Assembly: GCA_041855645.1 (NCBI GenBank)
Contig: JBHAEN010000055.1
Span: 1 to 42,448, forward strand
DNA: 42,448 nt
Direction of reading: 5' to 3'
Source of the DNA: Bacteroides sp.
GTDB lineage: Bacteria > Bacteroidota > Bacteroidia > Bacteroidales > Bacteroidaceae
Each line of letters opens with the position of its first letter. Position 1 is the stretch's first letter. The notes beneath the pieces were generated by a model that was not told the origin of the DNA, searched no databases, and saw only the letters and a program-made list of their open reading frames with translations. The position numbers and the translations under genes were made by a program. Below are positions 1,937-42,448 of this stretch, one piece after another.

Positions 1937-1944
1937 TATCTTTG
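1937..1944 (+). promoter_or_regulatory. -7 promoter box (TATCTTTG) driving the riboswitch/cbi operon
   Basis: Exact TAnnTTTG 7 bp upstream of the riboswitch P1 stem. Confidence 0.7.
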
Positions 1945-1950
1945 CCTCCG

Positions 1951-2139
1951 CATTTTGGTTGTACGTCCTGTGATTCCGACAGGGATGTGCTGAAAAGGGA
2001 ATCAGGTGCGAATCCTGAACAGACCCGCTGCTGTAAGCTCCTCCGATAGTTTTCGGCCGATACTCGGTTCCACTGTTCGTCGACGATTGAACGGGAAGGA
2101 TGGCCGGAGATGGAGTAAGTCAGAAGACCTGCCAGAATG
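1951..2139 (+). ncRNA. Cobalamin (B12) riboswitch
   Basis: Contains AAAAGGGAA-TCAGGTGCGAATCCTGA, CCCGCTGCTGTAA, CCACTG, GGGAAGG and the B12 box AAGTCAGAAGACCTGCC. P1 is CATTTTGG (1951-1958) pairing with CCAGAATG (2132-2139). It lies directly upstream of cobalamin genes. Confidence 0.95.
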
Positions 2140-2185
2140 GATCTTAGTTAAAAAGCTCGAGGTTTAGGCTTTCAACTTGTACACC

Positions 2186-8040: not shown

Positions 8041-8154
8041 TTTCCGAAATGCGTGCACTTGACGTCTGAAATGCACGCATTTCAGACGTCAGACACGTGC
8101 ATTTCAGAGATTGAACACGTGCATTTCAGACGTCAGATGCGCGCGATTCGGAAA
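8041..8154. repeat. Palindromic intergenic element (REP/MITE-like), copy 1
   Basis: 37-bp imperfect terminal inverted repeats (8041-8077 vs 8118-8154, 32/37). Perfect 15-bp inverted repeat at 8060-8074/8077-8091. GCATTTCAGA recurs at 8077, 8099 and 8121 (22-bp period). Confidence 0.8.
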
Positions 8155-15499: not shown

Positions 15500-15640
15500 T
15501 CTTTTTTGAGGAAAACCCCTCTTGTGCACAGGGCTTTATGGACTGTGTGCAAGAGGTTGGGATGAGATGTGACGGCATTCGCTTTCATGTCTTGTTTCAG
15601 GTGGATTTTATTGATTACTAACATAAGAAGAACACATCGT

Positions 15641-18600: not shown

Positions 18601-19033
18601 AAACTGGAAAGATTTGTCTTGCACACTGGCTTTCAGCTATCGTTGGGGAGGCATAATCTACAACAGCACACTGTTGGATAAACTGGAAAACAGCAATCTT
18701 GTTCATAATCTGGATCGTCGCGCGTTGGATAGCCGATGGGAGAAAGAAGGCGACGTTGTCCGTTACAAACGCTTTATGCCTGCCGGAAATGAAACGCCGG
18801 CGAGCAGTCGTTTCATCATGGACGACAATGAACTGAAACTGGCAAGTTTGAATCTGGGCTATCGTTTCCATAATGACAAATATACGTTCCTGCGCAAAAT
18901 GAACATCGATTTGGTTTCGTTGAACTTTACGACCAACGACCTGTTCCGCATCTCGTCCGTGCGTATGGAACGCGGCTTTGATTACCCGTTTTCTCGCAGC
19001 TATACGTTGTCTATGTCTGTTTTGTTCAAGTAA
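15641..19033 (+). CDS. susC: SusC/RagA family TonB-linked outer membrane protein with N-terminal STN-like extension
   Basis: EPLIGATV, DEVVVTG, plug motif LKDAAATSIYGSRAANGVVVVETK and C-terminal YPFSRSYTLSMSVLF. An extra domain (KITLRVSNETLGNVL...) precedes the CarboxypepD-like domain. ATG at 15641 preferred. Confidence 0.95.
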   Translation: MRKTKFCVILFCMTLLLTIVPSAGGIGGKLYAQNRADESWKEQKITLRVSNETLGNVLLKVANAAGANLILQEVTLVGINQPTTLNVKDKPLDKILAELLHDQNVKVRYEADKKIIVEPVAPSGATEKEKSGKIFLIEGVVTGSDFGEPLIGATVMVTDGTEEGGVAGAITDHDGKFSLKVEPKSSIRVSYIGYESYSQQITAPASGMKIVLSPAAVGMDEVVVTGISKRSKTSFTGNYVSVKGSDLRKLSPNNILKGLQFYDPSFKVADNNRRGSDPNALPEFYMRGDQSMGGSANMSSMDLMLDNVSSRPNTPLFVLDGFIVSIRRILELDPERVENITILKDAAATSIYGSRAANGVVVVETKVAPDGVLSVSYNGALTVEAPDLTDYNMMTAEEKLRTEVKAGLYPETNPALMNEYNRYLRNVLSGVNTYWLSQPLRTAFQHRHSLNAAGGTDVFRYSLGLNAGFRPGVMKSSSNDTRSITFNMTYRKDKTTVGASINLTETKGTDSPYGSFSSYTSINPYYPLTDENGNYQPVLDNHLAAGSRLIRNPLYNANLNLKDFTNNLTITGNLNLEYMITNNLRLSEQLSYVRGMVKDETFRPANHTLFVAETDLTKKGSYDKSVGDLTTWSSNLSLNWNLPFEQHLLSLMGNWTVNEDRSNYVNLHATGYPSEMMDDFIFGYQMQDRPSGTEAMSRAMGFIGQFSYSYDNRYSVDFNLSSELSSRYNADQRLAPFWSTGVRWNAYREKFLQGYVSNLVLRATYGITGEQNFNPYEAIEFYTFSGMMKPYKSFSVLGAKLNALHNPNLGWAKTDNFSLGLEVGVWKNRLNATFNYYNNITRQLLTNYDLAPSTGFSSQTINAGELQNSGFDFGLNLIAVQDIKNNFYWTLGVNGNYNKNKIRKISDFLRKMNEKALSSTGSPTPIYQEGESTTTLFVVRSLGIDPVTGKEVYLKKDGTKTFEWDPADKVAVGDTRPKLSGTFNSSVNWKDLSCTLAFSYRWGGIIYNSTLLDKLENSNLVHNLDRRALDSRWEKEGDVVRYKRFMPAGNETPASSRFIMDDNELKLASLNLGYRFHNDKYTFLRKMNIDLVSLNFTTNDLFRISSVRMERGFDYPFSRSYTLSMSVLFK

Positions 19034-19058
19034 TTGTTGAACCTAAATACATTGAAAA

Positions 19059-20462
19059 ATGAAAAATATAATCAAAATAGGAATATTGACGCTGGCGGGC
19101 GCGGCCTCTCTTTGCTCGTGTACCGACTGGTTCGATGTAAGTCCGAAAACAGACCTGAAAGCCGAAGAGTTCTTCGCTAAGGAAGAGGGCTTTATGAGCG
19201 CACTTGCGGGCACATACAGGCTTATGGCCGGCGAGAATACGTATGCCGGTGAGCTGAGTTTCCACCTGATGGAACAATTGGTAAATTCGTATGATCGTCT
19301 TCCCGACGGAGCCAATAGCGCCGCCGAAGTGTACATATATACTGAAAACACCAAAACGTTTGAAACCAAAACGCGTTTGGCCGATGTGTGGTTGAATTCG
19401 TATGAGGTGATTGCCAATGCGAACAATCTGCTGAAGTGGTTGGACAGTAAAGGAGAAGAAGTGATTTTCGATAAAACAACGCGTGATATGATTCGCGGAG
19501 AGGCATTGGCCATCCGGGCTTATGTACACTTCGACCTGCTTCGTGGCTGGGGGCCCATTTACAGCACCAAGTCCGATAGCCTGAGCATCCCTTATCGGAA
19601 AGTCGCCGATAACTCCAAGCAACCCTTGTTGCCCGCAAAAAAGATAGTGGAACATGTTCTGGAAGACCTCACTCAAGCCGGGCAACTGTTGGGATATGAA
19701 AAAGGCACTTCGCTGTCGGGATCTTTGCGTCGTTATCGTTTCAATTACCATGCCGTCAATGCGACGATGGCGCGTGTCTACTGCTATATCGGCGATGAAA
19801 CGAACGCCGTACGGTATGCAAAAGAAGTAATTGCCGGTTGCGGACTCGACTTGCAGGTAAGCAATCAGGGCGACCCGATGTTGTTTGATGAAGTGCTTTG
19901 CGGCATGTCTCTGGAAAAAATGACGAGTGAACTTTCCACGAAGTTCTCCGAAGGGCCGAAGTTTGTCGAACACCTTTATTGTACGATTTCTACGCTGAAC
20001 GGCTTTTTCGGAATTACGGGGACGGAAACGGAAGACATCCGTGCCAAGTCGTCCGCGTTCTTGCGTTACAATGACCAAGACAAAGCCATCTCTTTGAAGT
20101 ACATAAAAAATGACGCGGAGATTATTCCCTTGATCCGTTTGCCGGAAATGTATTATATCCTGTGTGAAATGTCGCCGCTGAGCGAAGCACCTGCATACCT
20201 GAACAAAGTACGCAACCGCAGAGGATATTCATCTTCAAGCAACGTGCAGTTCAGCTCTCACGAACAGCGCGTTCAGGCATTGAGTATAGAGTATCGCAAA
20301 GAATTTTATGCCGAAGGCCAGTATTTCTATTTCCTGAAGAAAAATCAGATAAGGACTTTCCAAAACTGTCCCGTTTCCGCCATGACCGAAAAGCACTATG
20401 TCTTCCCGTTGCCCGATAACGAGAAAGAATACGGCTGGACATCGCCGGATGAGGAGCAGTAA
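19059..20462 (+). CDS. susD: SusD/RagB family nutrient-binding lipoprotein
   Basis: Lipobox LCSC-TDWFDV, GEALAIRAYVHFDLLR, IRLPEMYYI, EYRKEFYAEGQYFY and YVFPLP..E. Confidence 0.93.
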   Translation: MKNIIKIGILTLAGAASLCSCTDWFDVSPKTDLKAEEFFAKEEGFMSALAGTYRLMAGENTYAGELSFHLMEQLVNSYDRLPDGANSAAEVYIYTENTKTFETKTRLADVWLNSYEVIANANNLLKWLDSKGEEVIFDKTTRDMIRGEALAIRAYVHFDLLRGWGPIYSTKSDSLSIPYRKVADNSKQPLLPAKKIVEHVLEDLTQAGQLLGYEKGTSLSGSLRRYRFNYHAVNATMARVYCYIGDETNAVRYAKEVIAGCGLDLQVSNQGDPMLFDEVLCGMSLEKMTSELSTKFSEGPKFVEHLYCTISTLNGFFGITGTETEDIRAKSSAFLRYNDQDKAISLKYIKNDAEIIPLIRLPEMYYILCEMSPLSEAPAYLNKVRNRRGYSSSSNVQFSSHEQRVQALSIEYRKEFYAEGQYFYFLKKNQIRTFQNCPVSAMTEKHYVFPLPDNEKEYGWTSPDEEQ

Positions 20463-20496
20463 ACTAACGCAGAATAATCCATAAAAAACAAAAAGT

Positions 20497-21795
20497 ATGA
20501 AATACCTATATTATATGCTTACCGCTCTGTTGACCGGCTCATTATTGGCCGGATGCGAGCATCAGGAGCCGCCTTATTTCGATGCAGGAGCCAATGGAGC
20601 CTATTTCTATAATGGGAAAGATGGTCAGCAAGTGTCGGATACGATCAACTTCGCCGACTACGCTTCCGAGAATCCTTCGGAACTCATTGATACGTTGCAT
20701 ATCAAGTTGTTGGGTTATAAAGCCGACAGGGATCGCAAACTGGTTCTGAAGACCAGACCGATAACCGGTTACACACAGGCGGTGATTCAGCTTCCTGAAG
20801 TGATGATTCCGAAAGATTCGACTGCCCATAAAGTGCTTGTTCGGATACCGCGTCCGGAAAATACGGATGAAGTATACGGTATATGCATTTATCTGGATAC
20901 GGAAGATCCGGAAAGCGAATTGGGCATGGGAATTGCCGGATATGCCGAATATTCCCTTTTTGTAAAGGAGGTCTATCGCAAGCCCTCAGGATGGGATTAC
21001 TCTTACGGCATGTATCTGGGAGAATGGAATCCGGCCAAACATGTCTTTATGGCGCAGGTGCTGAAGAATAATAATTATGCCGATCCCGGAGATCCCAACA
21101 TCTGGTCGAATGCTCCCCAATACAACTTACGGGCCGTGGACTCACTGCGAACCTATCAACAAAATAATCCGGGTGCGAATGTCGAGATCAATATTCCCTT
21201 CCATCCGGATGTACGCTATTCCAAGCCGTTTTATTGGGGAGAGTTGCACGATCGTTATCTGGGCACTTACTCAAGGCGCACTTTTGTGACCATTTGCCGT
21301 TCGGCCGGAATCAACACCTCCAACGAAGTCGCGTCTTTGGCAGCAGAAGAAGCAAGGCTGAAAGAGATGAACAAACTTGGGGTGAAGGCCATGATGCAGG
21401 AGTATAACAAAATATTCTCCTGGCAGTATGCAGGGGCCGGCTATCGCTCTTATTGTTGGGTACCGATGTTCGAAGATATCGATTATGAAGTGATTCGTCC
21501 CGGTGCTTGGAGCAGATCTTCCACTTCCGCCTTGTTGCAGCGCTATTATGGCGAATATTCGGAGGAGAAATATAAATTCATGATCAAGACGTGGCTGAAA
21601 CACAAAGGTACGCAAGACTTCGTGCTGGTTCAGATGTTCCCTGTCAAATTCACTTGGGGAGATACGGATGAAGTCGGCATGTGGGACGACAGCATCAACG
21701 GCGAAGAGCAAATCAAGGAGTGTTACAGGGTGTTCAAGGCTGCCTACGATCAACTGACGGACGCGTCATTCACTTTTCCCGAAGTTAGTCTTTAA
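20497..21795 (+). CDS. DUF4843-like lipoprotein
   Basis: Lipobox LLAGC, an Ig-like N-terminal part, and the KP..W...Y.G.(W/Y)..K motif typical of DUF4843 proteins following susD. Confidence 0.7.
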   Translation: MKYLYYMLTALLTGSLLAGCEHQEPPYFDAGANGAYFYNGKDGQQVSDTINFADYASENPSELIDTLHIKLLGYKADRDRKLVLKTRPITGYTQAVIQLPEVMIPKDSTAHKVLVRIPRPENTDEVYGICIYLDTEDPESELGMGIAGYAEYSLFVKEVYRKPSGWDYSYGMYLGEWNPAKHVFMAQVLKNNNYADPGDPNIWSNAPQYNLRAVDSLRTYQQNNPGANVEINIPFHPDVRYSKPFYWGELHDRYLGTYSRRTFVTICRSAGINTSNEVASLAAEEARLKEMNKLGVKAMMQEYNKIFSWQYAGAGYRSYCWVPMFEDIDYEVIRPGAWSRSSTSALLQRYYGEYSEEKYKFMIKTWLKHKGTQDFVLVQMFPVKFTWGDTDEVGMWDDSINGEEQIKECYRVFKAAYDQLTDASFTFPEVSL

Positions 21796-21854
21796 CGGAT
21801 AGATTATCGCGGAAATGCGGCATGCCGCATTTATCATCAATGAAGAATACAATT

Positions 21855-23573
21855 ATGAAAAAGATACTATACATAACGGCAGTGGCGGGATTGCTTTCCG
21901 CTTGCTATGAAGATAAGGGAACGTACGATTATCATTTTGACGACGTTAACTACATCGAAGGCATTTCTTTCGTGCCCGAGGCTTTTAGCGGTATAAAAGG
22001 GCTGACTGTGGAGTTCCAACAGCCGCTTGACGAGGCTAAAACGGAACGTGTGGAAGTGCAGTTGGAACAATCGCTGTCCCGGAATTTCGATAATCTCGAT
22101 TTCTGGTGGGAACGGACTTATACGAAAGACGGCGAAAAAGTTAAAGATACCTTGGAAACAAAAGGCTATTTGGACGTGGAACTGGCTCCCGGTAAAGATA
22201 CGGAATATAAAGTCCGTCTGAGGGTGAGAGATCGCGTTTCTTCTCTGGCCAGATACGTTAATTTTACGATCAGCACCCGTCCCATCTTCAGAAACAGCCT
22301 TTTTGTGCTACACGGCAATAGCGGCGGGGCAATGCAACTGGGCAATGTGGAATTCGTGGGGGACAAAACGGTGATACGCATGGATGCCTTGAAAGCCGTG
22401 CAACCGGACGCTCCCAATGCCTTTGCCGATGCCGTCGGCCTGGGTTACAACGCATATTATGATCTGAAGAAAGGGGCTTCCGAAAACTTCTGCGCTTTCC
22501 GTGCGGACGGACAGGCCGAACTGTATAGCCCATTCGGCCTTAAACTGAAGAAGCCGGTCGGTTATGTGATGCCGTACGCTGAGACTCCTTTCATCTACAA
22601 GCAGATGATGTTTGCCGGCGATGCTTCTTCTTCTACGGATTATATGTGCATGCTTTCTCAAGACGGACGTTTTTACATTTCCAGAACCTTTTTGTGCTTC
22701 CATGCTCCCGCGGGCGTGGCTGATTCGAATACCGACTATGAAGTGCGTGCGGCTACGATATCGAGCAGCAGTTATGTCGGGTGGGACGAACGTCATAATC
22801 GTTTCCTGCATTTATCGAAAGGCGATGATTACGGCTGGAATGAAGATATGGGACGCTCCGCCACCATGTCTCAGCAGATTTATGATGCTCATGTAGATCT
22901 CAGCGCATTGACGGCCGATCTGCATCCGGCGAATAAGGATGCGGTATATGCCTACATACAATACCGGGAAAATTACGACGACGCACATCCTTTCTTCATT
23001 TTCAAGGATACCGATGCCAATCGCTATTATGTCTATGAACTGACTCCTGCCGCAGGCGGTAAGGATGACAAGAAGAGTGGGCTTGCCCCGATTCTTCGTA
23101 CACGCGGAGACGACAAGGGAGAGGATGAAGATTTGTCCGACGGTCAGCCCGCATTCTCGATTTCAGGGAAGGTGTTGAGACGTTTCCAGCCGGGCAATTT
23201 GTCCGCCATTCTGTATAATTCATGGTTCACCACGAATTATCTTTTCTATGCCGACGGCAATACGGTGTATCGTTACAATACGGCCGACGGCGATAAAGTA
23301 GTCCTTTATACGGCTCCTGACGGATATACGGTTTCGACCATGAAGTTCCGCACTGAAGACGCCGCCCGATTCGCGGGCGATTTGGGGCGTTACCTCATGA
23401 TCGGCATGAATAAGGATAATGAAGGAGCCGTGGCCGAGGTGAAGCTGACGACTTCGGCCGACTTGGATGAAGAGTTTGCGCCCACATTTTATAATCAGGA
23501 TTCCGAAGGCAATAAATTCGGCCGGATTAAAGACCTCGTTTTCGCTCGTGAATATTTATATCAGAAAAACTAA
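21855..23573 (+). CDS. PKD-like family lipoprotein (probable C-terminal beta-propeller)
   Basis: LSAC-YEDKGTYDY start is characteristic of Bacteroidetes PKD-like lipoproteins; LFYADGNTVYRYN. ATG at 21855 preferred. Confidence 0.75.
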   Translation: MKKILYITAVAGLLSACYEDKGTYDYHFDDVNYIEGISFVPEAFSGIKGLTVEFQQPLDEAKTERVEVQLEQSLSRNFDNLDFWWERTYTKDGEKVKDTLETKGYLDVELAPGKDTEYKVRLRVRDRVSSLARYVNFTISTRPIFRNSLFVLHGNSGGAMQLGNVEFVGDKTVIRMDALKAVQPDAPNAFADAVGLGYNAYYDLKKGASENFCAFRADGQAELYSPFGLKLKKPVGYVMPYAETPFIYKQMMFAGDASSSTDYMCMLSQDGRFYISRTFLCFHAPAGVADSNTDYEVRAATISSSSYVGWDERHNRFLHLSKGDDYGWNEDMGRSATMSQQIYDAHVDLSALTADLHPANKDAVYAYIQYRENYDDAHPFFIFKDTDANRYYVYELTPAAGGKDDKKSGLAPILRTRGDDKGEDEDLSDGQPAFSISGKVLRRFQPGNLSAILYNSWFTTNYLFYADGNTVYRYNTADGDKVVLYTAPDGYTVSTMKFRTEDAARFAGDLGRYLMIGMNKDNEGAVAEVKLTTSADLDEEFAPTFYNQDSEGNKFGRIKDLVFAREYLYQKN

Positions 23574-23579
23574 ACGCTT

Positions 23580-24677
23580 ATGAGAAAAAGAATGATAAGC
23601 ATTTTGCTTGCGGCGGGGGCAATGGCCTCGCTGCAAGCTCAGCAACAGGTGTCGGTGCGCGGCCGTATCGAAGGCTTGGAGTCGGGAAGGCTCTATCTGT
23701 TGGCCGAAGCGGGAGATCAGCAGGTGGATACGTTGGGGTTCGCTGATTTCCAATCGCCCGATTTTCTGTTGAAAGGTTCTCTGAAAGAACCCTCCGTCGC
23801 TCGAATCATCGTAGCGGGTTATCAGGGCGGATTTGTTTTTCTGGCCGAACCCGGCGGACAATACGAAGCTCTACTCACCAATACCGATGAGGCTTATGTC
23901 CGTGGAGGAAACTTGCAGGATGAGTGGAGGGCTTATGAACGGCAAATAGGCGAAAGGCTCAGGCGGAAAGCCGACTACCGGAAACGTGCTGAAGAGCTGC
24001 GCGCTCAAAACAAGTTTCGCAGCGCCAGTTTGCTCAATGATTCCATTGCGGGGTTAGACCGCCTTATTCAGCAGGAGAAGGAAAGTTTTCTTTCGCGGCA
24101 CGACGATCTGATTGCGGCATATATGGCACAACTCTTCACCCTTTCCGCGGATGCCGGTTTGCAGGAGAGTGTACGGCTGTATGGAGAATTGGGAGAAGGA
24201 GCCAAAAATACGCCGGCGGGACGCATGTTGAAGACCCGTATCGAACGCATGGAGAAAACCGCGGCAGGACGTATCGCTCCCGACTTTACCCTGCAAGATC
24301 CGGAAGGACACGATGTGACGCTCAGCAAGGTGCGCGCCAAAATAAAACTGATCGATTTCTGGGCGTCGTGGTGCGGTCCCTGCCGCTTAAGCATGCCTAA
24401 ATTGAAGCAGCTTTATGAAGAATATCGCGAAAAAGGTCTTGAAATCATCGGCATTTCGCTCGACGGGAAGAAAGACCGATGGGTTGATGCCGTGCAAAAG
24501 GAAAATCTGCCGTGGATCAACGTCTCTTCACTGAAGGCTTGGGCGTGCGACGTTGCCCGCCAATATAACGTAAGGGCTATTCCCGCCATTTTCGTGTTGG
24601 ATGAAAATAACCGGATCATAGCTTCGGATTTGCGCGGTGATAAGCTCGGCGAGTTTCTGAAAGAACGTTTGAAATAA
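23580..24677 (+). CDS. TlpA-like thiol:disulfide oxidoreductase (DUF4369 + AhpC/TSA-type thioredoxin domain)
   Basis: Signal peptide, APDFTLQDPEG, IDFWASWCGPCR and cis-Pro loop VRAIP. Confidence 0.92.
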   Translation: MRKRMISILLAAGAMASLQAQQQVSVRGRIEGLESGRLYLLAEAGDQQVDTLGFADFQSPDFLLKGSLKEPSVARIIVAGYQGGFVFLAEPGGQYEALLTNTDEAYVRGGNLQDEWRAYERQIGERLRRKADYRKRAEELRAQNKFRSASLLNDSIAGLDRLIQQEKESFLSRHDDLIAAYMAQLFTLSADAGLQESVRLYGELGEGAKNTPAGRMLKTRIERMEKTAAGRIAPDFTLQDPEGHDVTLSKVRAKIKLIDFWASWCGPCRLSMPKLKQLYEEYREKGLEIIGISLDGKKDRWVDAVQKENLPWINVSSLKAWACDVARQYNVRAIPAIFVLDENNRIIASDLRGDKLGEFLKERLK

Positions 24678-24724
24678 AATAGCCAAAGGCATGTCATAAA
24701 GAAAACAATAAACAAAAACACCAG

Positions 24725-25882
24725 ATGAAAAAAATACTTTTGTTGATTTGCAGCACCCTGTTTATATGGCAAGGGTGGGCACAAAAAGACAATAATGCGT
24801 ATGTGATCACGGGTGAAATGACTCGCGACTCTCTGCGTTTTACGTCTAAGGCGATAGATAAACTTTACCTCACCACTTACGTCGACGGGCAAGAAGTCAA
24901 GTTGGATTCCGCCAAGGTTAAAAACAAGCGTTTCCGTTTCGAGGGAAAAGCTCCCGTCGTACTCGGAGCCTATTTTATCACCGGATTCGATAACGGAAGC
25001 GTACAGTTCTTTTTGGAACCGGGTACGATTAAGGTAAGACCTTTCGACGCTCATTTCCCCGTTTCGGCCATTGTGGAAGGAACACCCAACAACAATGTGC
25101 TGGCCGGATATCAGGAATTGATCGGCCGTCGCGTGAAGGAAAGCCGGGATCAACACCACGACAAATTGTCGGCGGAACCGGTTGATGAGAAACTGAGCAC
25201 GCTTTATCAGAATTCCGTTTTCTTTTCAAACACGCTTTACACGAAAACCGAAGTCATCAAATACGTGCGGAAGCACTTGAATTTTCCGGCCGCACTTTAT
25301 TTGATGAGGTATGACCTGTACGACATGTTCACGCCCAAAGTGGTCGAGAGGCAGCTGTTGCGTTCCGTTCCCGCTCATCTGCACAGTCATCCGCTCTATC
25401 GCGAAATGTCCAATCTGGTCAAGGCGGCCAACCTGAAAGTGGGCGCAGTTGCACCCGACATCGAGGGGAAAACGCCCGAAGGAAAAACGCTCAGCCTGTC
25501 GGATTTGAAAGGGAAGTATGTGTTGCTCGACTTCTGGGCTTCGTGGTGCGGTCCGTGCCGTCGCGAGTTTCCTTTCTTGCAGCAAGCCATGAAAGTCTCC
25601 GAAGCACACGACAATTTTGTGATACTGAGCTACTCCATCGACAACAAAGCCGCGGACTGGGTTTCCTGCATCGAAAAGAACAACCTGAAACACAAGAACT
25701 GGATTCACATCTCCACGCTGAAAGGTTGGCATTCCGATGCCGTAAAACTGTTTGCCGTCAAAGGAGTTCCGCACACTGTGCTGCTGAATCCGAGCGGGCA
25801 AGTCGTGGCATTCGACCTGAGAGGAGAGGAAATGCTCTCCAAAGTAACCCGTATCATGGAGGGAACAGAAAGTTATGAATAA
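24725..25882 (+). CDS. TlpA-like thiol:disulfide oxidoreductase
   Basis: Signal peptide, LDFWASWCGPCR and VKGVP. Confidence 0.92.
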   Translation: MKKILLLICSTLFIWQGWAQKDNNAYVITGEMTRDSLRFTSKAIDKLYLTTYVDGQEVKLDSAKVKNKRFRFEGKAPVVLGAYFITGFDNGSVQFFLEPGTIKVRPFDAHFPVSAIVEGTPNNNVLAGYQELIGRRVKESRDQHHDKLSAEPVDEKLSTLYQNSVFFSNTLYTKTEVIKYVRKHLNFPAALYLMRYDLYDMFTPKVVERQLLRSVPAHLHSHPLYREMSNLVKAANLKVGAVAPDIEGKTPEGKTLSLSDLKGKYVLLDFWASWCGPCRREFPFLQQAMKVSEAHDNFVILSYSIDNKAADWVSCIEKNNLKHKNWIHISTLKGWHSDAVKLFAVKGVPHTVLLNPSGQVVAFDLRGEEMLSKVTRIMEGTESYE

Positions 25883-27083
25883 AGAATCCGTAAAAAGAAG
25901 AAAAATGTTACGCAGAATAAGTTTGATCATTGCCGGTTTGCTGGTTGTCGGATCCATGCAGGCCCAGGGCGTATGTACCATTAACGGAACCGTGAGGAAA
26001 GACTCGCTTCGCTTCACACCGAAACGCATGGATAAAGTCTACCTCAGCAAGATGGACGAATATGAACGTATTATTGCCGTCGATTCGGTGATGTTGCGCG
26101 ACGGAAAGTTCAGCTTCAGTTATCCGGTGGATAAGGACGCGCCCGTTTTGCTCTATTTCATCACCGGTTTCGACAACGGGCAGGTTCCCGTATTCGTGGA
26201 ACCCGGAACCGTGGAAATCCACATCAAAGAGGCCGCTTTCCCGGGCGGAGCCGAAGTGAGAGGCACGGTCACCAACGAACTGTATGCCGAGTACGAAAAG
26301 ATCGGGCAGCGTTGCGTGCAGGCTCAGAGCGATTCGGTGAAGTATTTATTGAAGACGAAAGGCAACGAATGGATCGATTCGCCCGAAGGTATCGGCGAAC
26401 GCAACCGCATCGGAGCGAGTGAGTTGCTTGAGTGCATAGCCGATAGAATCCAATTCCTGATCAAGCACAACGACTCGCCGTTGGCTGCCCTTATGATGGA
26501 GCGCGAAGTGGCTTATATGCTGGATAAACGATATGCCGAACGACTGCTGAAATCGCTTTCTCCCAAACTGAGAAACCATCCTTACTACAAATCGTTCTAC
26601 AACTCCGTGCGTGCGCAGGATTTGAGGGTGGGAGGCGATTTGCCCGACATCAGGATTCCGCTGCTCAATGGCGAAACGGCTTCTCTGAGCGATTATCGCG
26701 GCAAGTTTGTGCTGCTCGACTTCTGGGCGTCATGGTGTGCGCCGTGTCTGAAAGAAATCCCCAATCTGATTGCACTCTACAACGAGGCCAAGGAGAAGAA
26801 CGCCGACTTTGTGATAGTGAGCTTTTCGCTCGATAATAAAGAGAAGGCATGGAAAGACGCCATCAAGTCCAAAGGCATCGATTTGCCCGGTTGGGTACAC
26901 GGCTCCGATTTGTTCGGCTGGGGATCACCTGCCGCCCGTTTGATGGGAGTGACGGCCATACCTAAAATTATTCTGATCGATCCGGAGGGCAAGGCCATTT
27001 CTTTCTCGTTGAGAGGAGAAGAACTGACCACCCGTGTTCGTCAGATACTGAACGGCGATTTATATTACAAAAACGAGCAGTAA
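25875..27083 (+). CDS. TlpA-like thiol:disulfide oxidoreductase
   Basis: LDFWASWCAPCL and VTAIP. Alternative start at ATG 25905. Confidence 0.92.
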   Translation: MNKESVKRRKMLRRISLIIAGLLVVGSMQAQGVCTINGTVRKDSLRFTPKRMDKVYLSKMDEYERIIAVDSVMLRDGKFSFSYPVDKDAPVLLYFITGFDNGQVPVFVEPGTVEIHIKEAAFPGGAEVRGTVTNELYAEYEKIGQRCVQAQSDSVKYLLKTKGNEWIDSPEGIGERNRIGASELLECIADRIQFLIKHNDSPLAALMMEREVAYMLDKRYAERLLKSLSPKLRNHPYYKSFYNSVRAQDLRVGGDLPDIRIPLLNGETASLSDYRGKFVLLDFWASWCAPCLKEIPNLIALYNEAKEKNADFVIVSFSLDNKEKAWKDAIKSKGIDLPGWVHGSDLFGWGSPAARLMGVTAIPKIILIDPEGKAISFSLRGEELTTRVRQILNGDLYYKNEQ

Positions 27084-27223: not shown

Positions 27224-27324
27224 CGCAATTCACGCGTCAACTGCACGTGTTCAACGTCTGAAATGCGTGTGTCCAACGTCCGAAACACGCGCAGTTGACG
27301 CGTGAATTGCGCGTGATTCGGAAA
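27224..27324. repeat. Palindromic intergenic element (REP/MITE-like), copy 2
   Basis: 28-bp inverted repeat at 27224-27251/27284-27311 (27/28). Shares TGCACGTGTTCAAnnTCTGAAATGC and the end GCGCGyGATTCGGAAA with the 8041-8154 element. Confidence 0.8.
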
Positions 27325-29308: not shown

Positions 29309-30013
29309 ATGAGAAAAGTTATTTCGGTTCTTTCCTTGTGCCTTGTGCTTTCCGCGTTTGCCGGTTTGCAGGCACAAAACATTCAATTGCATTATGATTT
29401 CGGCCGTTCCCTCTACAATGCGGATTTGAACAGCCGTTCGATTCTCACCACTACGGTGGAAAAGTTTCAGCCCGACGCTTGGGGAAGCACTTTCTTCTTT
29501 GTCGACATGGATTATACTTCGAAAGGAGTGGCCTCGGCTTATTGGGAAATTGCGCGTGAACTGAAGTTCTGGAAAGGTCCTTTCTCGGCACACATCGAGT
29601 ATAACGGCGGCCTGACCAATGCTTTTTCATTCAACAACGCCTATCTGGGCGGTGCCACCTATACGTGGAACGACGCCTCTTTCGGCAAGGGATTTACGCT
29701 GACGGCCATGTACAAGCATATCCAGAAGCACGATGAGCCGCACAACTTCCAGTTGACGGGCACGTGGTACATGAATTTCTGCGATCGTTTGCTCACGTTC
29801 TGCGGCTTTGCCGACTATTGGCGCGAAAAATATGCCGACCGTACGATGATTTTCTTGAGCGAACCTCAATTCTGGGTCAATCTGAATCGACTGAAGGGAG
29901 TCAATAAGAATTTTAACCTGAGTGTGGGCACTGAGGTGGAAATCAGCAATAATTTTGTTCGGAAAGGTTTCTATGCCATTCCCACTCTCGCCGTAAAATG
30001 GACGCTGAACTGA
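29309..30013 (+). CDS. DUF5020 family / Tsx-like nucleoside-specific outer membrane channel
   Basis: Signal peptide then QNIQLHYDFG, TTTVE.F.PD.WGSTFFFVDMDY, AYWEIAREL and FLSEPQFW. Beta-barrel pattern with C-terminal PTLAVKWTLN. Confidence 0.8.
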   Translation: MRKVISVLSLCLVLSAFAGLQAQNIQLHYDFGRSLYNADLNSRSILTTTVEKFQPDAWGSTFFFVDMDYTSKGVASAYWEIARELKFWKGPFSAHIEYNGGLTNAFSFNNAYLGGATYTWNDASFGKGFTLTAMYKHIQKHDEPHNFQLTGTWYMNFCDRLLTFCGFADYWREKYADRTMIFLSEPQFWVNLNRLKGVNKNFNLSVGTEVEISNNFVRKGFYAIPTLAVKWTLN

Positions 30014-30021
30014 ACCGGACA

Positions 30022-31350
30022 ATGAAGACGGATTTGATTTATGGCGTTGAATCGCGTCCGCCATTTAAAGATGCGCTTTTTGCGGCCATTCAGCATTTGC
30101 TGGCCATTTTTGTGGGCATCATCACGCCTCCGCTCATTATTGCGGGCGCGTTGAAACTGGATGTTCCCACCACGGGCTTTCTGGTTTCCATGGCCTTGTT
30201 CGTTTCGGGCGTCTCGACCTATATCCAGTGCCGTCGTTTCGGTTCTCTCGGAGCCGGTTTGCTTTGCATTCAGGGAACCAGTTTTTCGTTCATCGGCCCC
30301 ATTATATCGACGGGACTGGCCGGCGGTCTGCCGCTGATCTTCGGAGCCTGCATTGCCGCGGCTCCCATCGAGATGGTGGTGAGTCGCACGTTTAAGTACT
30401 TGCGTCACATCATCACGCCTGTGGTTTCGGGCATTGTGGTGTTGCTCATCGGGCTCAGCCTGATTAAAGTAGGGATTGTGGCATGCGGTGGCGGTTACGG
30501 AGCCATGGAGAACAACACGTTCGGCGCGTGGGAAAACCTGTCCATTGCGGCTGCGGTGTTGCTTAGCGTGCTTTTCTTCAACCGTAGCGGGAATAAGTAT
30601 CTGCGCATGAGTTCCATCGTGCTAGGAATTTGCTTCGGCTACGGTCTGGCCTTTTTCCTTGGAAAGGTAGATATGAGTGCGTTGAGCAGCGATACGCTTA
30701 TGCGTTTCAACGTACCGTTGCCTTTTAAATACGGAATTGATTTCAATCTTTCTTCGTTCATCGCCATCGGGTTGGTCTATCTGATTACGGCCATTGAAGC
30801 GACCGGTGATATTACGGCCAATTAGATGATATCCGGCTTGCCGATTGAAGGAGAACCTTACCTGAAACGAGTGTCGGGAGGGGTGTTGGCCGATGGCTTT
30901 AATTCCATGCTGGCCGGTGTTTTCAACTCTTTCCCCAACTCCATTTTTGCTCAGAACAACGGCATTATTCAGCTCACGGGCGTGGCAAGCCGCCATGTGG
31001 GCTATTATATCGCCGCCATGCTGGTGTTGCTCGGTCTTTTTCCCGTGGTGGGAGTCTTGTTCTCGGTGATGCCCGATCCCGTGCTTGGCGGAGCCACGTT
31101 GCTTATGTTCGGAACCGTGGCAGCGGCGGGCGTGCGCATTGTCTCTTCTCAGCACATTGGCCGTAAGGAAACGCTCGTTCTGGCCGTGAGTCTCTCGTTG
31201 GGCTTGGGTGTGGAACTGATGCCCGATGTGTTGAAGCAGGCTCCGGAAGCCATTCGCAGCATATTTTCTTCGGGCATCACCACGGGAGGTTTGGCAGCCA
31301 TCGTCGCCAATGCTGTGATTCGGGTGAAGGGCGGTGAGGAAGAAGCATGA
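30022..31350 (+). pseudogene. NCS2 family xanthine/uracil permease interrupted by an in-frame TAG at 30823-30825
   Basis: Two abutting same-frame ORFs (..GDITAN*MISG..). The N-part has QHLLAIF and IQGTSFSF; the C-part has the NCS2 signature FAQNNGIIQLTGVASR and PVLGGA. Confidence 0.85.
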
Positions 31351-38326: not shown

Positions 38327-38393
38327 TCGGTCTGCGTGCAAGAATCAATTATTGTCCCCAAAAACAACCTTTTAAAACTAAAGTATATCGTTT

Positions 38394-41300
38394 ATGAAGA
38401 ACCGGGAAAACCCTCAAAACAACCGCTTTTCTTTGAAGGAAAAGTACTTTTGGGCTCCTTTTCTGAATTTGGCCCAGCACAATGTTTTTATCACCCTTGA
38501 GCATATCAACAACCATTTGTCCGGAGATTCTTTCTCCGGAAACGAACAGGAAGTTAAGGTACTGATTCAAAAATGGTGGAAAATAGCGAAAGGCCGGGAC
38601 ATCGACAAGAAGGCGCGTCTTCGGGATGCATTGGATAAACATTTTCCCTTTTTGAAAGCAGCCTCCTATGCAAAAGAACTCTTCGACCTTTCCAAAGATG
38701 CCAAGGGCAAAAAAAGAAGACTAAAAGAGGTGGAGCAGGAAGCGCAGGAAAGAGCTTACTTGCCGGAGAAGTTGATTGCCCGACTCGATGAATTTCTTGA
38801 GAGATTGAATGCCTTTAGAAACTACTTCTCGCATTACAGGCACTCCTCGACTCCCGAAATTCCCTCAATAAGCGAAGACTTTGAAAAACAGTTGTACGCC
38901 ATATTTGACGCCAGTGTCAGAATGGTCAAAGAAGACCACAAGAAGAATTCAAGTATTCATGTACAAAGTCACTTCGATCACTTAATAAGAGTAGGAAAAA
39001 ACAAAAATCCCAATCCTAAGTTCAAACATCATTTTTACCGAGACAATTCTTTTTCCGAAGCCGGATTATTGTTTTTCACTTCACTGTTCCTGGCCAAAGA
39101 AGATGCCTTTTGGATGCAGAAAAAGGTTACCGGATTCAAAAGTAGCCGAATCCTGAGCGAGCAGATGACCAATGAAGTCTTTTGCCGGAGCAGAATATGC
39201 ATTCCGAAGCTCAAACTCGAAAGCGTGTACGACACCGACCGGATATTGCTCGATATGTTCAACGAATTGGTGAGATGTCCTCAATCGCTGTTCGAACGTT
39301 TGCAGGAAAACGATAAAGAACAGTTCAGGATACCGGCTGACGAAGAGGAGCACGAAAGTGGCGATGAGCTTGGCGACGACGATCTCTTTAAATACGAACT
39401 GGTGAGAGGAAGAAACCGGTTTCCTTATTTCGCGTTGAGGTTCTTTGACTTGAATGAAGTGTTCAACGATTTGCGCTTTCAAATCAGTTTGGGCAATTAC
39501 CACTTCTCTGTCTACGATAAGAAAATCGGAGGGTTTACGGAAAAGCGCCACCTGACCCGAAATCTGTATGGTTTCTCCCGTCTGCAAGATTTTACTTCGA
39601 GCACACAGCCCGAAGCGTGGCAAAAGCTGGTCAAGGAGTTAGACTACAACGAGTCGTCGAACGAGCCTTTCATCTCCCGATCGACTCCTCATTACCACAT
39701 TGCCGAACAAAAGATCGGCATGAGGTTTGGGGCGCCGGACAACTTGTGGCCTCGCTTAGAAGTTGTGCCGGTGTCGGGCGTCAGGAACAGATACAAGTAT
39801 GACGATTCCCATGTGGCCGAAGCATTCTTGAGCGTTTACGAGTTGATGCCGATGATGTTCTACTATCTGTTGGTCAGAAGCTGTACCGATAAACGAGAGG
39901 CCGGTCAAAAAGTGGAGGGAGTAATCAGGCGGACCCAAAAGAAGATCCATGAGATCTATGATGCTTTCGAGCGGGAAGAAATCAACAGCATGGAGGATTT
40001 GGAGCGGCGGTTAAGCAAAACTAACATCCTCAAGGGACACTTGCCGGAGCGGCTGATCGCGCTGTTGCAAGAGAAGCCGCAGGATATGGAAATCAAAGCG
40101 GAACGCAAACTGAACGAACTCATTTCGCAAACCGAAAAAAGGATAGTGCAGATAAAAAAGCAAAACGAGCGTAAAATAAAAATAGGTAAAAGAGGAGCGG
40201 GGCTGTTGAAACCCGGAATTATTGCGGATTGGCTGGTCAAGGACATGATGCGCTTTCAACCCGTGGCCAAAGAGGGAGGCGTACCGCTGAACAACAGTAA
40301 AGCCAACAGCACGGAATATCAGCTTTTGCAACGTACGTTCGCTCTGTACGGAAGCGAAAAAAACAGATTGCACGCTTACTTCAACCAATTAAGGCTGATC
40401 AATTCGGACAACCCTCATCCTTTCCTGAATCAGTTCAAATGGGATGAGCAAACCAATCTTACGGATTTCTACCAAAGTTACCTGAAAGCTCGGCAAAAAT
40501 ATTTGAAGGGACTAAAACCCGAAGACTGGAAAGACTGCCAACATTTTCTGCTTCTGAAAGTGCACAAGACCGATAGAAGCAATTTGGTGAGGGGGTGGAA
40601 AAACGGTCTCAATCTGCCCCGAGGGATGTTTACCCAACCCATCTTCGAATGGCTTCGAGAGAAGAACCCCGAAAGTTTACCCGCCGACTTCATAAGCGAT
40701 GAAAACAGAGTCGGCTTCATTGCCAGAGTCATACCCTTATATTTCCTGAAAGTACACAAAGACCGTGTGCAAACTTTCTATGACTGTCCGTTCAATGTGG
40801 GAAATACGCACAAGACCGAAGAAGCCAACTATCTGCCGGAAGCAGAGCGTCGCGAGTTGTGGAAAAAGCTGAAAGCAACGATAGCCTGCCCCGAGAATCC
40901 GGAGAAAGAACCTCAAAAGTGGAAAGACTACCTGAACTTTAAGGAGTGGAAGGAGTTTGAACGCCAACTGCGACTCATCAAGAATCAGGACATATTGCTC
41001 TGGTTGATGTGTAAAGAGCTGATGGCAGACAAAAAAGTGCAAGGCTTAACCTTCGAAGAATTGCGTTTAGAAGATCTTGGTCCCGAAATGGGACACAAAG
41101 GAAGCCTCAACATCCTTAACCAAGTGGTGCCGATGCGGCTGCCGCTTACCATTTACCCGGAAGACAGTAAGGGTGCTCCTTTACGCAAAGAACAACCCGT
41201 AGGCAAGATATATCTGGAAGCCAAAGACACCAAACTGTTGAAACAAGGCAACTTCAGGGCACTCTTGAAAGACCGCCGGCTGAACGGACTCTTTTCGTTT

Positions 41301-41717
41301 GCCGATTGGTCACACGGAGGCAGTTCCATTCCCGTCGTAGACAAAAAAACGGTGGAACACGAACTCGGCGAATACCAGTCGTTGCGTGTGGAAGTCTTTA
41401 AGATGACGTTGGGCTTTGAGGAGTATTTAATCAAACAAAACCCTCGATTGCCAACAGACAACTTCAGAACAATGATCGAAACATGGCTCAACGGGAAAAG
41501 CAACGACGAAAAGAAAGAACTTGAGGCATACACGGCCCCTTTGATAGCCGTGCGCAACGCTTTCTCACACAACCAGTATCCCGCATACAACAAGGCGTGT
41601 TTCCACAGCATACGTAGAATTGACCTGACTCTGCCGGAGGCCAAACTAAACATCGCATTGCAGTTGAAGGAACTCGTGCAACGGTGTGTAGAGCGAATCA
41701 CGGCCTCCGAGATGTAA
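38394..41717 (+). CDS. cas13b: Type VI-B CRISPR RNA-guided RNase Cas13b
   Basis: 1107 aa with two terminal HEPN RxxxxH motifs, RNYFSH (R142-H147) and RNAFSH (R1054-H1059). Cas13b-typical blocks include FWAPFLNLAQHN, KHFPFL, RFPYFALR, IADWLVKDMMRFQP, NLPRGMF and GNFRALLKDRRLNGL. A CRISPR array is adjacent. Confidence 0.96.
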   Translation: MKNRENPQNNRFSLKEKYFWAPFLNLAQHNVFITLEHINNHLSGDSFSGNEQEVKVLIQKWWKIAKGRDIDKKARLRDALDKHFPFLKAASYAKELFDLSKDAKGKKRRLKEVEQEAQERAYLPEKLIARLDEFLERLNAFRNYFSHYRHSSTPEIPSISEDFEKQLYAIFDASVRMVKEDHKKNSSIHVQSHFDHLIRVGKNKNPNPKFKHHFYRDNSFSEAGLLFFTSLFLAKEDAFWMQKKVTGFKSSRILSEQMTNEVFCRSRICIPKLKLESVYDTDRILLDMFNELVRCPQSLFERLQENDKEQFRIPADEEEHESGDELGDDDLFKYELVRGRNRFPYFALRFFDLNEVFNDLRFQISLGNYHFSVYDKKIGGFTEKRHLTRNLYGFSRLQDFTSSTQPEAWQKLVKELDYNESSNEPFISRSTPHYHIAEQKIGMRFGAPDNLWPRLEVVPVSGVRNRYKYDDSHVAEAFLSVYELMPMMFYYLLVRSCTDKREAGQKVEGVIRRTQKKIHEIYDAFEREEINSMEDLERRLSKTNILKGHLPERLIALLQEKPQDMEIKAERKLNELISQTEKRIVQIKKQNERKIKIGKRGAGLLKPGIIADWLVKDMMRFQPVAKEGGVPLNNSKANSTEYQLLQRTFALYGSEKNRLHAYFNQLRLINSDNPHPFLNQFKWDEQTNLTDFYQSYLKARQKYLKGLKPEDWKDCQHFLLLKVHKTDRSNLVRGWKNGLNLPRGMFTQPIFEWLREKNPESLPADFISDENRVGFIARVIPLYFLKVHKDRVQTFYDCPFNVGNTHKTEEANYLPEAERRELWKKLKATIACPENPEKEPQKWKDYLNFKEWKEFERQLRLIKNQDILLWLMCKELMADKKVQGLTFEELRLEDLGPEMGHKGSLNILNQVVPMRLPLTIYPEDSKGAPLRKEQPVGKIYLEAKDTKLLKQGNFRALLKDRRLNGLFSFADWSHGGSSIPVVDKKTVEHELGEYQSLRVEVFKMTLGFEEYLIKQNPRLPTDNFRTMIETWLNGKSNDEKKELEAYTAPLIAVRNAFSHNQYPAYNKACFHSIRRIDLTLPEAKLNIALQLKELVQRCVERITASEM

Positions 41718-41738
41718 CCGATAAAAATAAAGAACATC

Positions 41739-42272
41739 ATGTGTATAGAAGTCATTCGAATCGTTACTCCCCTTATCGGCGTCACTTTTGGGGCATGGCT
41801 CGCTTACCGCTATGCCGTGAAGCGCTTGCACAAAGAAAGCATAGCCGGCATCGAACGCAAGAAGTATGAAGCCATATTGGCGGCTCATCAAAGTATGTAC
41901 AAACTATTGAAGTACACCACCAACAGTGAGAACCCCGCAAGCATACTTGTTTGGGAGAAAGCGAAAGAAGGGAACGTGCCAACCGTTTACTTTTTTCGTA
42001 AAGACTGCATCACCGCTTTTCTCAATGCGCTTCCCGAAGAATTTTATGAAAAGGGAAGCGGGCTTTTCCTCTCGCAAGATGTCGCAGAACTATTCTTCGA
42101 GTATAGGGGGATAGTCTACGGAATGCTGTTGGCCACCCAAAGTCGGAAAGAGAATCGCATCAAAATAGAAAAGCCCGAAACCGCTGAGCGAATGATAACC
42201 ATTCACAATGAACTTTCTCGGAAAATCAGGGAGAGCATTGCTTTGGACGAAAGGAAATTGAAAAGGAAGTAA
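41739..42272 (+). CDS. csx28: Type VI-B2 accessory membrane protein Csx28
   Basis: 177 aa between cas13b and the array. One N-terminal hydrophobic helix (VIRIVTPLIGVTFGAWLAY), FYEKGSGLFLS and a divergent HEPN-like RMITIH (R151-H156). Confidence 0.9.
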   Translation: MCIEVIRIVTPLIGVTFGAWLAYRYAVKRLHKESIAGIERKKYEAILAAHQSMYKLLKYTTNSENPASILVWEKAKEGNVPTVYFFRKDCITAFLNALPEEFYEKGSGLFLSQDVAELFFEYRGIVYGMLLATQSRKENRIKIEKPETAERMITIHNELSRKIRESIALDERKLKRK

Positions 42273-42335
42273 AGATGAAAAAAATACTCTTCAATGGAGA
42301 TAGGATAATAAATCTTAGTTGGTTACTGAGGATGA
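42273..42335 (+). promoter_or_regulatory. Putative CRISPR leader (63 bp, AT-rich)
   Basis: AT-rich segment between the csx28 stop and the first repeat. Confidence 0.5.
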
Positions 42336-42448
42336 GTTGTGTCTGCTCTCTATTTGAAGGGCAAAGACAACTACAGCAACATCTCGTTCTATCGCATTTT
42401 CGTTGTGTCTGCTCTCTATTTGAAGGGCAAAGACAACCGGCCATCAAC
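42336..42448 (+). CRISPR. Type VI-B CRISPR array (start only; truncated by the window edge)
   Basis: Two identical 36-bp repeats GTTGTGTCTGCTCTCTATTTGAAGGGCAAAGACAAC (42336-42371, 42402-42437), a 30-bp spacer TACAGCAACATCTCGTTCTATCGCATTTTC, and 11 nt of a second spacer. GTTG...CAAC ends and 36/30 geometry are typical of VI-B. Confidence 0.93.

What the first reader, a model, noticed from the sequence alone, without database searches (positions are those of the whole stretch)
38394..42448. Type VI-B2 RNA-targeting CRISPR system: cas13b + csx28 + array, no cas1/cas2 in the window
Seen: a 1107-aa ORF with RxxxxH motifs near both termini, then a 177-aa single-TM ORF 21 bp downstream, then 36-bp GTTG...CAAC repeats with a 30-bp spacer. 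Established: this architecture defines subtype VI-B2, a single-effector RNA-guided RNase with collateral activity that processes its own crRNA. Inference: both catalytic motifs are intact and the two visible repeats are identical, so the locus looks functional. The subtype is known, but this ortholog/repeat pair may be uncharacterised and is a candidate RNA knockdown, editing or detection tool.
Basis: partly seen in the sequence, partly recalled or inferred. Interest (0 to 1): 0.9.

Follow-up and report, generated by a model that had tools for sequence, protein, structure and literature searches.

The report
Intact divergent Cas13b–Csx28 RNA-targeting CRISPR locus
This is an intact bacterial CRISPR locus of the known RNA-targeting kind VI-B2, a Cas13b gene only about half identical to its nearest relatives plus a Csx28 gene and a guide array, which likely fights viruses by cutting RNA and may borrow its memory-writing enzymes from a separate Cas9 system in the same genome.

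Summary
cas13b (38394-41717) and csx28 (41739-42272) pass the curated NCBIfam cut-offs by wide margins. Both HEPN motifs, the crRNA-processing lysine and seven Csx28 interface residues are kept. The array is cut by the contig end after two repeats. It is a new member of a known subtype: 51% identical to PbuCas13b, at most 53% to anything else compared. Added here: (1) the leader is predicted to pair with repeat 1, the hairpin published for VI-B2; (2) the genome holds a II-C cas9-cas1-cas2 locus whose leader-repeat junction shares 10 identical bases with this one, a hint, not proof, of spacer supply in trans; (3) the junction just behind apbE has two forms in two runs, so the cassette looks polymorphic; (4) strain variants carry many amino-acid changes that avoid conserved sites. 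No protospacer was found and no activity was measured. Interest 0.9 is too high; about 0.33.

The parts
38394..41717 (+). cas13b, 1107 aa; HEPN-1 R142/N143/H147, HEPN-2 R1054/N1055/H1059, Lid lysine K376 (K393 of PbuCas13b)
   Evidence: role of K393 from a passage of PMC11662929
41739..42272 (+). csx28, 177 aa; N-terminal hydrophobic helix; Y54, T61, Y103, E121, R151, H156, R164 match the seven residues named for the PbuCsx28 interface and salt bridge
42273..42335 (+). 63-nt leader; 42287-42309 is predicted to pair with the first 26 nt of repeat 1 (leader-repeat hairpin, 23 pairs)
42331..42340 (+). leader-repeat junction; these 10 nt are identical to the junction of the II-C array on contig C239 (226-235, minus strand)
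42336..42371 (+). CRISPR repeat 1 (leader-proximal), 36 nt, 28 of 36 identical to the S. buccae repeat and 28 of 36 to the P. gulae repeat
42372..42401 (+). spacer 1, 30 nt; no target found
42402..42437 (+). CRISPR repeat 2, identical to repeat 1
42438..42448 (+). 11 nt after repeat 2, probably the start of spacer 2, cut by the contig end
   Evidence: in run X1 a different sequence follows a repeat for about 410 nt, read as the true 3' flank
38327..38393 (+). 67-nt gap between apbE and cas13b; left edge of the cassette near 38332, where contigs of runs X2 and X3 also continue into another sequence

Best explanation
The locus encodes an intact Cas13b, an intact Csx28 and a CRISPR array, and it likely works as a standard VI-B2 antiviral system in which guide-loaded Cas13b would cut matching RNA and bystander RNA while Csx28 would depolarise the membrane. 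Shown here: gene identity, intact frames, conserved catalytic and interface residues, repeat and spacer sizes. Inferred from PbuCas13b and PgiCas13b work: (1) cas13b, csx28, leader and array are transcribed on the plus strand, probably as one unit; (2) the leader pairs with repeat 1 and keeps it from giving a useless first crRNA; (3) Cas13b cuts the other repeats with the K376 site into about 66-nt spacer-repeat crRNAs; (4) target binding joins the two HEPN motifs, giving target and collateral cleavage; (5) activated Cas13b triggers Csx28 octamer pores, slowing metabolism and phage growth. Least certain (about 0.5): new spacers come from the II-C Cas1-Cas2 on contig C239, the only adaptation module found in this 84% complete genome. 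The cassette probably arrived by horizontal transfer from the Prevotella/Porphyromonas gene pool and is not fixed in the host species.
For: Profiles far above cut-off. 50.9% global identity to PbuCas13b with R156/H161/K393/R1068/H1073 mapping to R142/H147/K376/R1054/H1059; all five are invariant in the 27-sequence alignment A1. The 12 fold matches with E<=0.001 begin with 6DTD and 9FCV, and 10 are titled as Cas13b, Cas13bt3 or Cas13h1 structures. All seven Csx28 residues named in the pore paper's structure section are kept. Leader-repeat hairpin: with a 63-nt leader the repeat's own stem has probability 0.000 against a mean of 0.66 for shuffled leaders (1 of 300 as low; 3 of 300 pair as much), and it holds for leaders of 50 to 180 nt. 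Two full-length variants from other assemblies differ at 13 and 18 residues, none catalytic; 41 changed sites have mean conservation 0.19 against 0.47 for the protein (0 of 10000 permutations as low), and 2 of 41 fall in columns at least 90% conserved against 28% expected. In run X1 the repeat piece has depth 211 against 13 for the locus, a rough hint at a many-repeat array. Tree: the protein sits in a starred branch with the Prevotella/Porphyromonas VI-B2 proteins, apart from the same-genus Cas13b proteins.
Against: No activity or expression was measured. No protospacer was found. Listed strain differences in cas13b are 30 amino-acid-changing to 14 silent, close to neutral (pN/pS about 0.95) against 1 to 11 in apbE, which relaxed selection could also give. 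The hairpin is lost in equilibrium folding once the whole spacer 1 is added (repeat stem probability 0.70; 46 of 100 shuffled spacers also exceed 0.5), so it would depend on folding during transcription. No plus-strand promoter match was seen in the 67-nt gap. For supply in trans: the II-C repeat is 47 nt, not 36; 6 of 6 other genomes with both arrays share only 0-2 junction bases; and PMC8092290 reports that the VI-B array of Riemerella anatipestifer did not gain spacers beside an active II-C system.
Confidence: 0.85

Rival explanations
1. The cassette is a recently acquired, intact-looking but decaying or silent passenger: selection on it has relaxed, and it is being lost from the population.
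For: Near-neutral ratio of listed changes, 30 to 14. A second form of the apbE-proximal junction in X2 and X3. No promoter consensus in the gap. Contigs of X3 match cas13b and csx28 only in part (loose ends at 40542 and 42143), which could be insertions or foreign matches.
Against: Changes avoid conserved columns; none of the 44 listed changes makes a stop; both full-length variants keep every catalytic residue; the leader-repeat hairpin is stronger than in most of 10 other VI-B2-clade loci.
Confidence: 0.1
2. The system interferes but cannot adapt in this host: the array is an orphan inherited with the cassette, because the II-C integrase measures 47-nt repeats and cannot duplicate a 36-nt one.
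For: Repeat lengths 47 and 36. PMC8092290 raises exactly this doubt and cites the Riemerella case. [quoted passage not shown]
Against: Ten identical bases across the leader-repeat junction, reached by 0 of 137 cross-genome pairs. Both arrays have 30-nt spacers. A spacer end unlike spacer 1 lies before a repeat-like piece in X7, though that run also holds a more divergent allele. This rival concerns only the adaptation step and can hold together with the rest of the best explanation.
Confidence: 0.4
3. Spacers come from another adaptation module (type I, type III or RT-Cas1) in the part of the genome that was not assembled.
For: The genome is 84% complete. RT-Cas1 modules serving VI-B systems are published (abstract passage of PMC11662929).
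Against: One cas1 and one cas2 only, no cas4 match; the one reverse transcriptase match is a 376-aa frame on contig C32, where no cas1 was found.
Confidence: 0.1

Closest known systems
Prevotella (Segatella) buccae VI-B2 system: PbuCas13b (PDB 6DTD, 9FCV) and PbuCsx28 (PDB 8GI1)
   Same: Order cas13b-csx28-leader-array; 36-nt GTTG...CAAC repeat with 30-nt spacers; HEPN and Lid residues; Csx28 interface residues; no cas1/cas2 at the locus; a II-C-type array with 47-nt repeats beside cas1 elsewhere in the genome.
   Different: Cas13b 50.9% and Csx28 44% identical; repeat differs at 8 of 36; a strong predicted leader-repeat hairpin here, none above shuffles for S. buccae with a 63-nt leader (48 of 100); junction shared with the II-C array here (5 leader bases) but not in S. 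buccae (0).
Porphyromonas gingivalis / P. gulae VI-B2 systems (PgiCas13b, PguCas13b)
   Same: Same layout and sizes; the leader-repeat hairpin that blocks an extraneous first crRNA was shown for P. gingivalis AJW4 (PMC13187072, sections 7-9 and 15 read).
   Different: 45-48% identity; separate branch in the tree.
Flavobacterium columnare VI-B array using II-C Cas1-Cas2 in trans (PMC8092290)
   Same: cas1-less VI-B array with a II-C locus in the same genome; shared leader-distal GTTGT of the repeats.
   Different: There both repeats are 36 nt, no csx gene is present and the leader junctions are unlike; here the repeats are 36 and 47 nt, csx28 is present and the junctions match over 10 nt.
PspCas13b and other VI-B1-type Cas13b (PDB 8WF8, 6AAY)
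   Same: Family and overall fold.
   Different: Only 15-19% identity in the structural alignments; different accessory gene.

Membership tests
CRISPR-Cas subtype VI-B2 | Single large effector of the Cas13b family | tested here: met
   NF038190 856.8 bits, cut-off 150; PADLOC Cas13b; 6DTD top hit by sequence and by fold
CRISPR-Cas subtype VI-B2 | Two terminal HEPN RxxxxH motifs | tested here: met
   R142/H147 and R1054/H1059 align with the PbuCas13b RNxxxH motifs and are invariant in A1
CRISPR-Cas subtype VI-B2 | Adjacent csx28, not csx27 | tested here: met
   NF040556 224.2 bits, cut-off 50; 8GI1 E 4.4e-46; seven named residues kept
CRISPR-Cas subtype VI-B2 | 36-nt repeat with GUUG/CAAC ends, hairpin with U-rich loop, about 30-nt spacers | tested here: met
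   criteria from passages of bioRxiv 10.1101/092577; only two repeats lie in the contig
CRISPR-Cas subtype VI-B2 | No cas1/cas2 at the locus | tested here: inconclusive
   None on this contig, but the DNA beyond the array is not held, apart from a 30-letter loose end
CRISPR-Cas subtype VI-B2 | Effector falls in the csx28-associated Prevotella/Porphyromonas branch | tested here: met
   FastTree, 40 rows: starred 18-row branch (97) inside a starred 26-row branch (100)
CRISPR-Cas subtype VI-B2 | Self-processing of pre-crRNA, RNA-guided cleavage, collateral activity, Csx28 enhancement | not testable with these tools
   Residues are present; needs bench work
VI-B arrays with a leader-repeat hairpin (PMC13187072) | Leader pairs with repeat 1 and opens its stem more than shuffled leaders do | tested here: met
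   1 of 300 shuffles as low in repeat-stem probability; weakens when spacer 1 is included
VI-B arrays adapting in trans through II-C Cas1-Cas2 (PMC8092290) | II-C cas1-cas2 in the same genome | tested here: met
   cas9 1390 aa, cas1 310 aa, cas2 110 aa and three 47-nt repeats on C239
VI-B arrays adapting in trans through II-C Cas1-Cas2 (PMC8092290) | Shared spacer-acquisition motif in protospacers of both arrays | tested here: inconclusive
   No protospacer found for either array
VI-B arrays adapting in trans through II-C Cas1-Cas2 (PMC8092290) | Equal repeat length in both arrays, as in F. columnare | tested here: not met
   36 against 47 nt

The most novel reading that the evidence does not exclude
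A II-C Cas1-Cas2 integrase built for 47-nt repeats also writes spacers into this 36-nt VI-B2 array, because the imported Cas13b leader has come to match the host's II-C leader-repeat junction; meanwhile the Cas13b surface is diversifying within the species, as under pressure from phage anti-CRISPR proteins. This would make the host a natural test case for how most cas1-less VI-B arrays grow despite unequal repeat lengths.
Probability: 0.2. Interest if true: 0.62.

Novelty: new member of a known kind. Interest (0 to 1): 0.33.

Why it matters
As a system it is ordinary: VI-B2 has solved structures and studied mechanisms. Its value is modest and practical. It is a Cas13b/repeat pair on its own branch, about half identical to anything else found, so it may differ in cleavage preference, flanking-sequence rule, collateral activity or anti-CRISPR sensitivity, and is a fair candidate for an ortholog screen. 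The one link to an open question is adaptation: PMC8092290 states that it is unknown how species with unequal II-C and VI-B repeat lengths built their VI-B arrays, and this genome offers a pair with matching leader junctions that can be tested with Cas1-Cas2 integration assays.

Tried and rejected
Pfam gave no family for either Cas protein. Protospacer searches: no exact 30-mer in viral contigs; one 18-nt part gave 3 matches that extend to only 20-22 of 30 and were rejected, the other gave none; phage records gave only partial matches with E 0.6 or more among the 20 rows shown; plasmids none; no self-target in the genome beyond 15-nt matches; the II-C array found no phage match. No further repeat copies in the genome or in JGI metagenome contigs, and the two loose-end sequences were not found in the 84% complete genome, so the right edge of the cassette and the second allele could not be read; an insertion sequence at 38332 is not excluded. 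The gene that follows apbE in two close relatives has a homolog on contig C82, but nothing tied C82 to the array. No RNA holder was listed. A first scan of genome contigs with the single protein found nothing; the alignment found 14 loci. The search of protein representatives stayed in the queue and was never collected, so the novelty claim rests. The first tree run timed out and was redone with FastTree; no donor or direction of transfer was tested. A general rule that VI-B and II-C leaders of one genome match was rejected: 6 of 7 pairs do not. A special switch role for spacer 1 was rejected: 39 of 100 shuffled spacers restore the repeat stem as much. Earlier findings of the scan: none. Supplements of the papers (ortholog tables of 10.1101/092577, Dataset EV1 of PMC13187072, Figs S5-S6 of PMC8092290) were not read and could list this locus or similar junction matches.
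Full report
Observation. The window is the whole contig C55 of an 84% complete, 2.65-Mb, 272-contig genome. The ORFs, the 21-bp gap, the two RxxxxH motifs, the two identical 36-nt repeats and the 30-nt spacer are as described. The contig ends 11 nt after repeat 2. Two RxxxxH motifs are expected by chance in this protein (2.15), so identity had to come from homology.

Identity. The large protein scores 856.8 bits on NCBIfam VI_Cas13b (cut-off 150) and the small one 224.2 on CAS_Csx28 (cut-off 50); PADLOC agrees; Pfam has no hit. The best solved relatives are PbuCas13b 6DTD and Csx28 8GI1. An AlphaFold model (mean pLDDT 72.4, pTM 0.54) gives 12 Foldseek matches with E<=0.001, led by 6DTD and 9FCV (TM about 0.6, rmsd about 12, so the domain arrangement is only roughly right). 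Against the S. buccae protein from locus L013, global identity is 563 of 1107 (50.9%), and R156, H161, K393, R1068, H1073 map to R142, H147, K376, R1054, H1059. The HEPN numbering of PbuCas13b is recalled; the role of K393 in crRNA processing comes from a passage of PMC11662929. Csx28 is 44% identical to PbuCsx28 and keeps Y55, T62, Y104, E122, R152, H157 and R165 (offset by one), the residues named in section 6 of bioRxiv 10.1101/2021.11.02.466367 (abstract and that section read).

How new. Among 263 hits, of which the best 120 were listed, the next cluster after the protein's own is 50% identical, and the highest is 52% over 73% of the length; one locus reaches 53% over 758 residues. Its own cluster has 3 members, none named. 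In the host genus 14 of 250 genomes (own included) pass the Cas13b cut-off and 7 of 250 the Csx28 cut-off; 10 of the 13 others were aligned and are 22-27% identical; three split or partial ones were not. A FastTree tree of 40 rows puts the protein on a long branch (0.75) at the base of a starred group with the Prevotella, Segatella, Hoylesella and Porphyromonas gulae/gingivalis proteins, away from the same-genus proteins (left out were L019, eight distant order-level loci, two near-copies from the genus and most of the 120 hits). Horizontal transfer is inferred from this and from GC 46% against 51.5% for the genome; donor and direction were not tested. The genus is not named by the tools; SusC/SusD genes and the size of the genus suggest Bacteroides (inference). 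Two literature searches for a characterised ortholog of this kind showed none in their listings; listings only, and the ortholog tables in supplements were not read.

Surroundings. Upstream lie housekeeping genes, ending in mntP and apbE; none of the 30 upstream ORFs scanned was named as a mobile-element gene. In 19 relatives of the genus no cas13b follows apbE within about 1.5 kb (one locus ends after 374 nt), and the neighbours vary. Four runs of one study hold over half of the locus's words (three labelled oral metagenome, one pig metagenome); four further runs from four other studies hold pieces, mostly at 95-100%. In X2 and X3 a contig identical or nearly so to apbE leaves the window at 38332, 6 nt after the stop, into the same other sequence, while another contig continues into cas13b. 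So both forms co-occur; whether the other is an empty site or an insertion could not be read. In X1 the repeat piece has depth 211 against 13 for the locus and a 443-nt contig runs from a repeat into unique sequence; depth is no copy number, but a longer array is likely.

Leader-repeat hairpin. The 63-nt leader plus repeat 1 folds into a 23-pair hairpin (-27 kcal/mol, z -3.5). The repeat's own terminal stem then has probability 0.000 against 0.66 for shuffled leaders (1 of 300 as low); results are alike for 50, 100 and 180 nt and absent for 30 nt. This is the feature shown for P. gingivalis VI-B2 to block an extraneous first crRNA (PMC13187072, abstract and sections 7, 8, 9, 15) and it fixes the array's direction as plus. 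Among 10 other loci, 5 had at most 4 of 100 shuffles as high. Against: with the whole spacer 1 the repeat stem returns (0.70), as it does for about half of shuffled spacers; my shuffles of the leader kept base but not dinucleotide content.

Source of spacers. The only cas1 and cas2 found belong to a II-C locus on C239: cas9 (1390 aa), cas1, cas2, leader and three 47-nt repeats with 30-nt spacers. No cas4 was found. Read from the leader, the two arrays share the last 5 leader bases and the first 5 repeat bases. In 137 cross-genome pairs (16 VI-B by 9 II-C leaders) none shares 5 leader bases and 3 share 4; the other 6 same-genome pairs share 0, 0, 0, 0, 0 and 2. I noticed the match before testing it, the pairs are not independent, and loci without a clear first repeat were left out (L006, L012, L063, L067, L071, L074, L075; L069 duplicates L017). 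It is a hint at about the 1% level and not a general rule. PMC8092290 (passages and sections 7, 11) showed supply in trans for equal 36-nt repeats and left unequal lengths open; PMC10367356 (passages) found no shared spacers or repeats in P. gingivalis. No protospacer was found, so the acquisition motif could not be compared.

Selection. Of 44 listed single-base differences in cas13b, 30 change a residue, 14 are silent, none makes a stop; 13.5 silent are expected if neutral. apbE has 1 and 11 (Fisher p 0.0003). The list is incomplete (41 rows not shown), counts one codon three times and includes a more divergent allele from X7. Yet 41 changed sites avoid conserved columns (mean 0.19 against 0.47; 0 of 10000 permutations). 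That fits a working gene whose variable surface changes fast, better than a decaying one; diversifying selection is not shown.

Verdict. An intact, divergent, probably functional VI-B2 locus: a new member of a known kind. Mechanism is inferred from orthologs (0.85). Supply of spacers by the II-C module is about even; the stronger claim of a leader adapted to it is 0.2. Interest 0.33.

Noticed in passing
G000 contig C239:1-5801 (L001, L003): Type II-C locus with open cas9 (1390 aa), cas1 (310 aa) and cas2 (110 aa) frames and an array of 47-nt repeats cut by the contig end.
   Followed up: partly
window 29998-31350: Xanthine permease (pbuX-like) is split in frame by one TAG at 30823-30825 into 275-aa and 174-aa parts; a nonsense change or an assembly error.
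   Followed up: partly
window 1939-2150: Cobalamin riboswitch (RF00174, 95.9 bits) ahead of cobalamin synthesis and ABC transport genes.
   Followed up: no
window 8041-8154 and 27224-27324: Intergenic palindromic repeat family with 22-nt period at two places; looks like a REP-type or miniature element.
   Followed up: no
window 15569-27083: SusC/SusD pair followed by two unnamed proteins and three tandem TlpA/ResA-like thiol-disulfide oxidoreductases.
   Followed up: no
L114, L116, L118-L120, L131-L136: Six other genomes of the genus carry a distant csx28; in five compared it is about 25-28% identical and lies beside a Cas13b only 23-24% identical to this one, and the three placed in the tree fall on a separate branch: a second csx28-bearing lineage.
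   Followed up: partly
L098 and L066 (G362:C93): A cas2 gene and an array with Cas13b-like GTTG...CAAC repeats and 31-37-nt spacers lie about 3.5 kb upstream of a cas13b on one contig; possibly a VI-B locus with its own adaptation module.
   Followed up: no
window 40542 and 42143 (run X3): Long loose ends inside cas13b and csx28 in one run; insertions or short foreign matches.
   Followed up: no
window 42401-42431 (run X7): A contig with a different spacer end, a repeat apparently one base shorter and then unique sequence; X7 also holds an allele about 88% identical near the cas13b 3' end.
   Followed up: no
L021 (Hoylesella saccharolytica): Cas13b of the VI-B2 branch with the array about 140 nt behind it and no csx28 match in the locus.
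   Followed up: no
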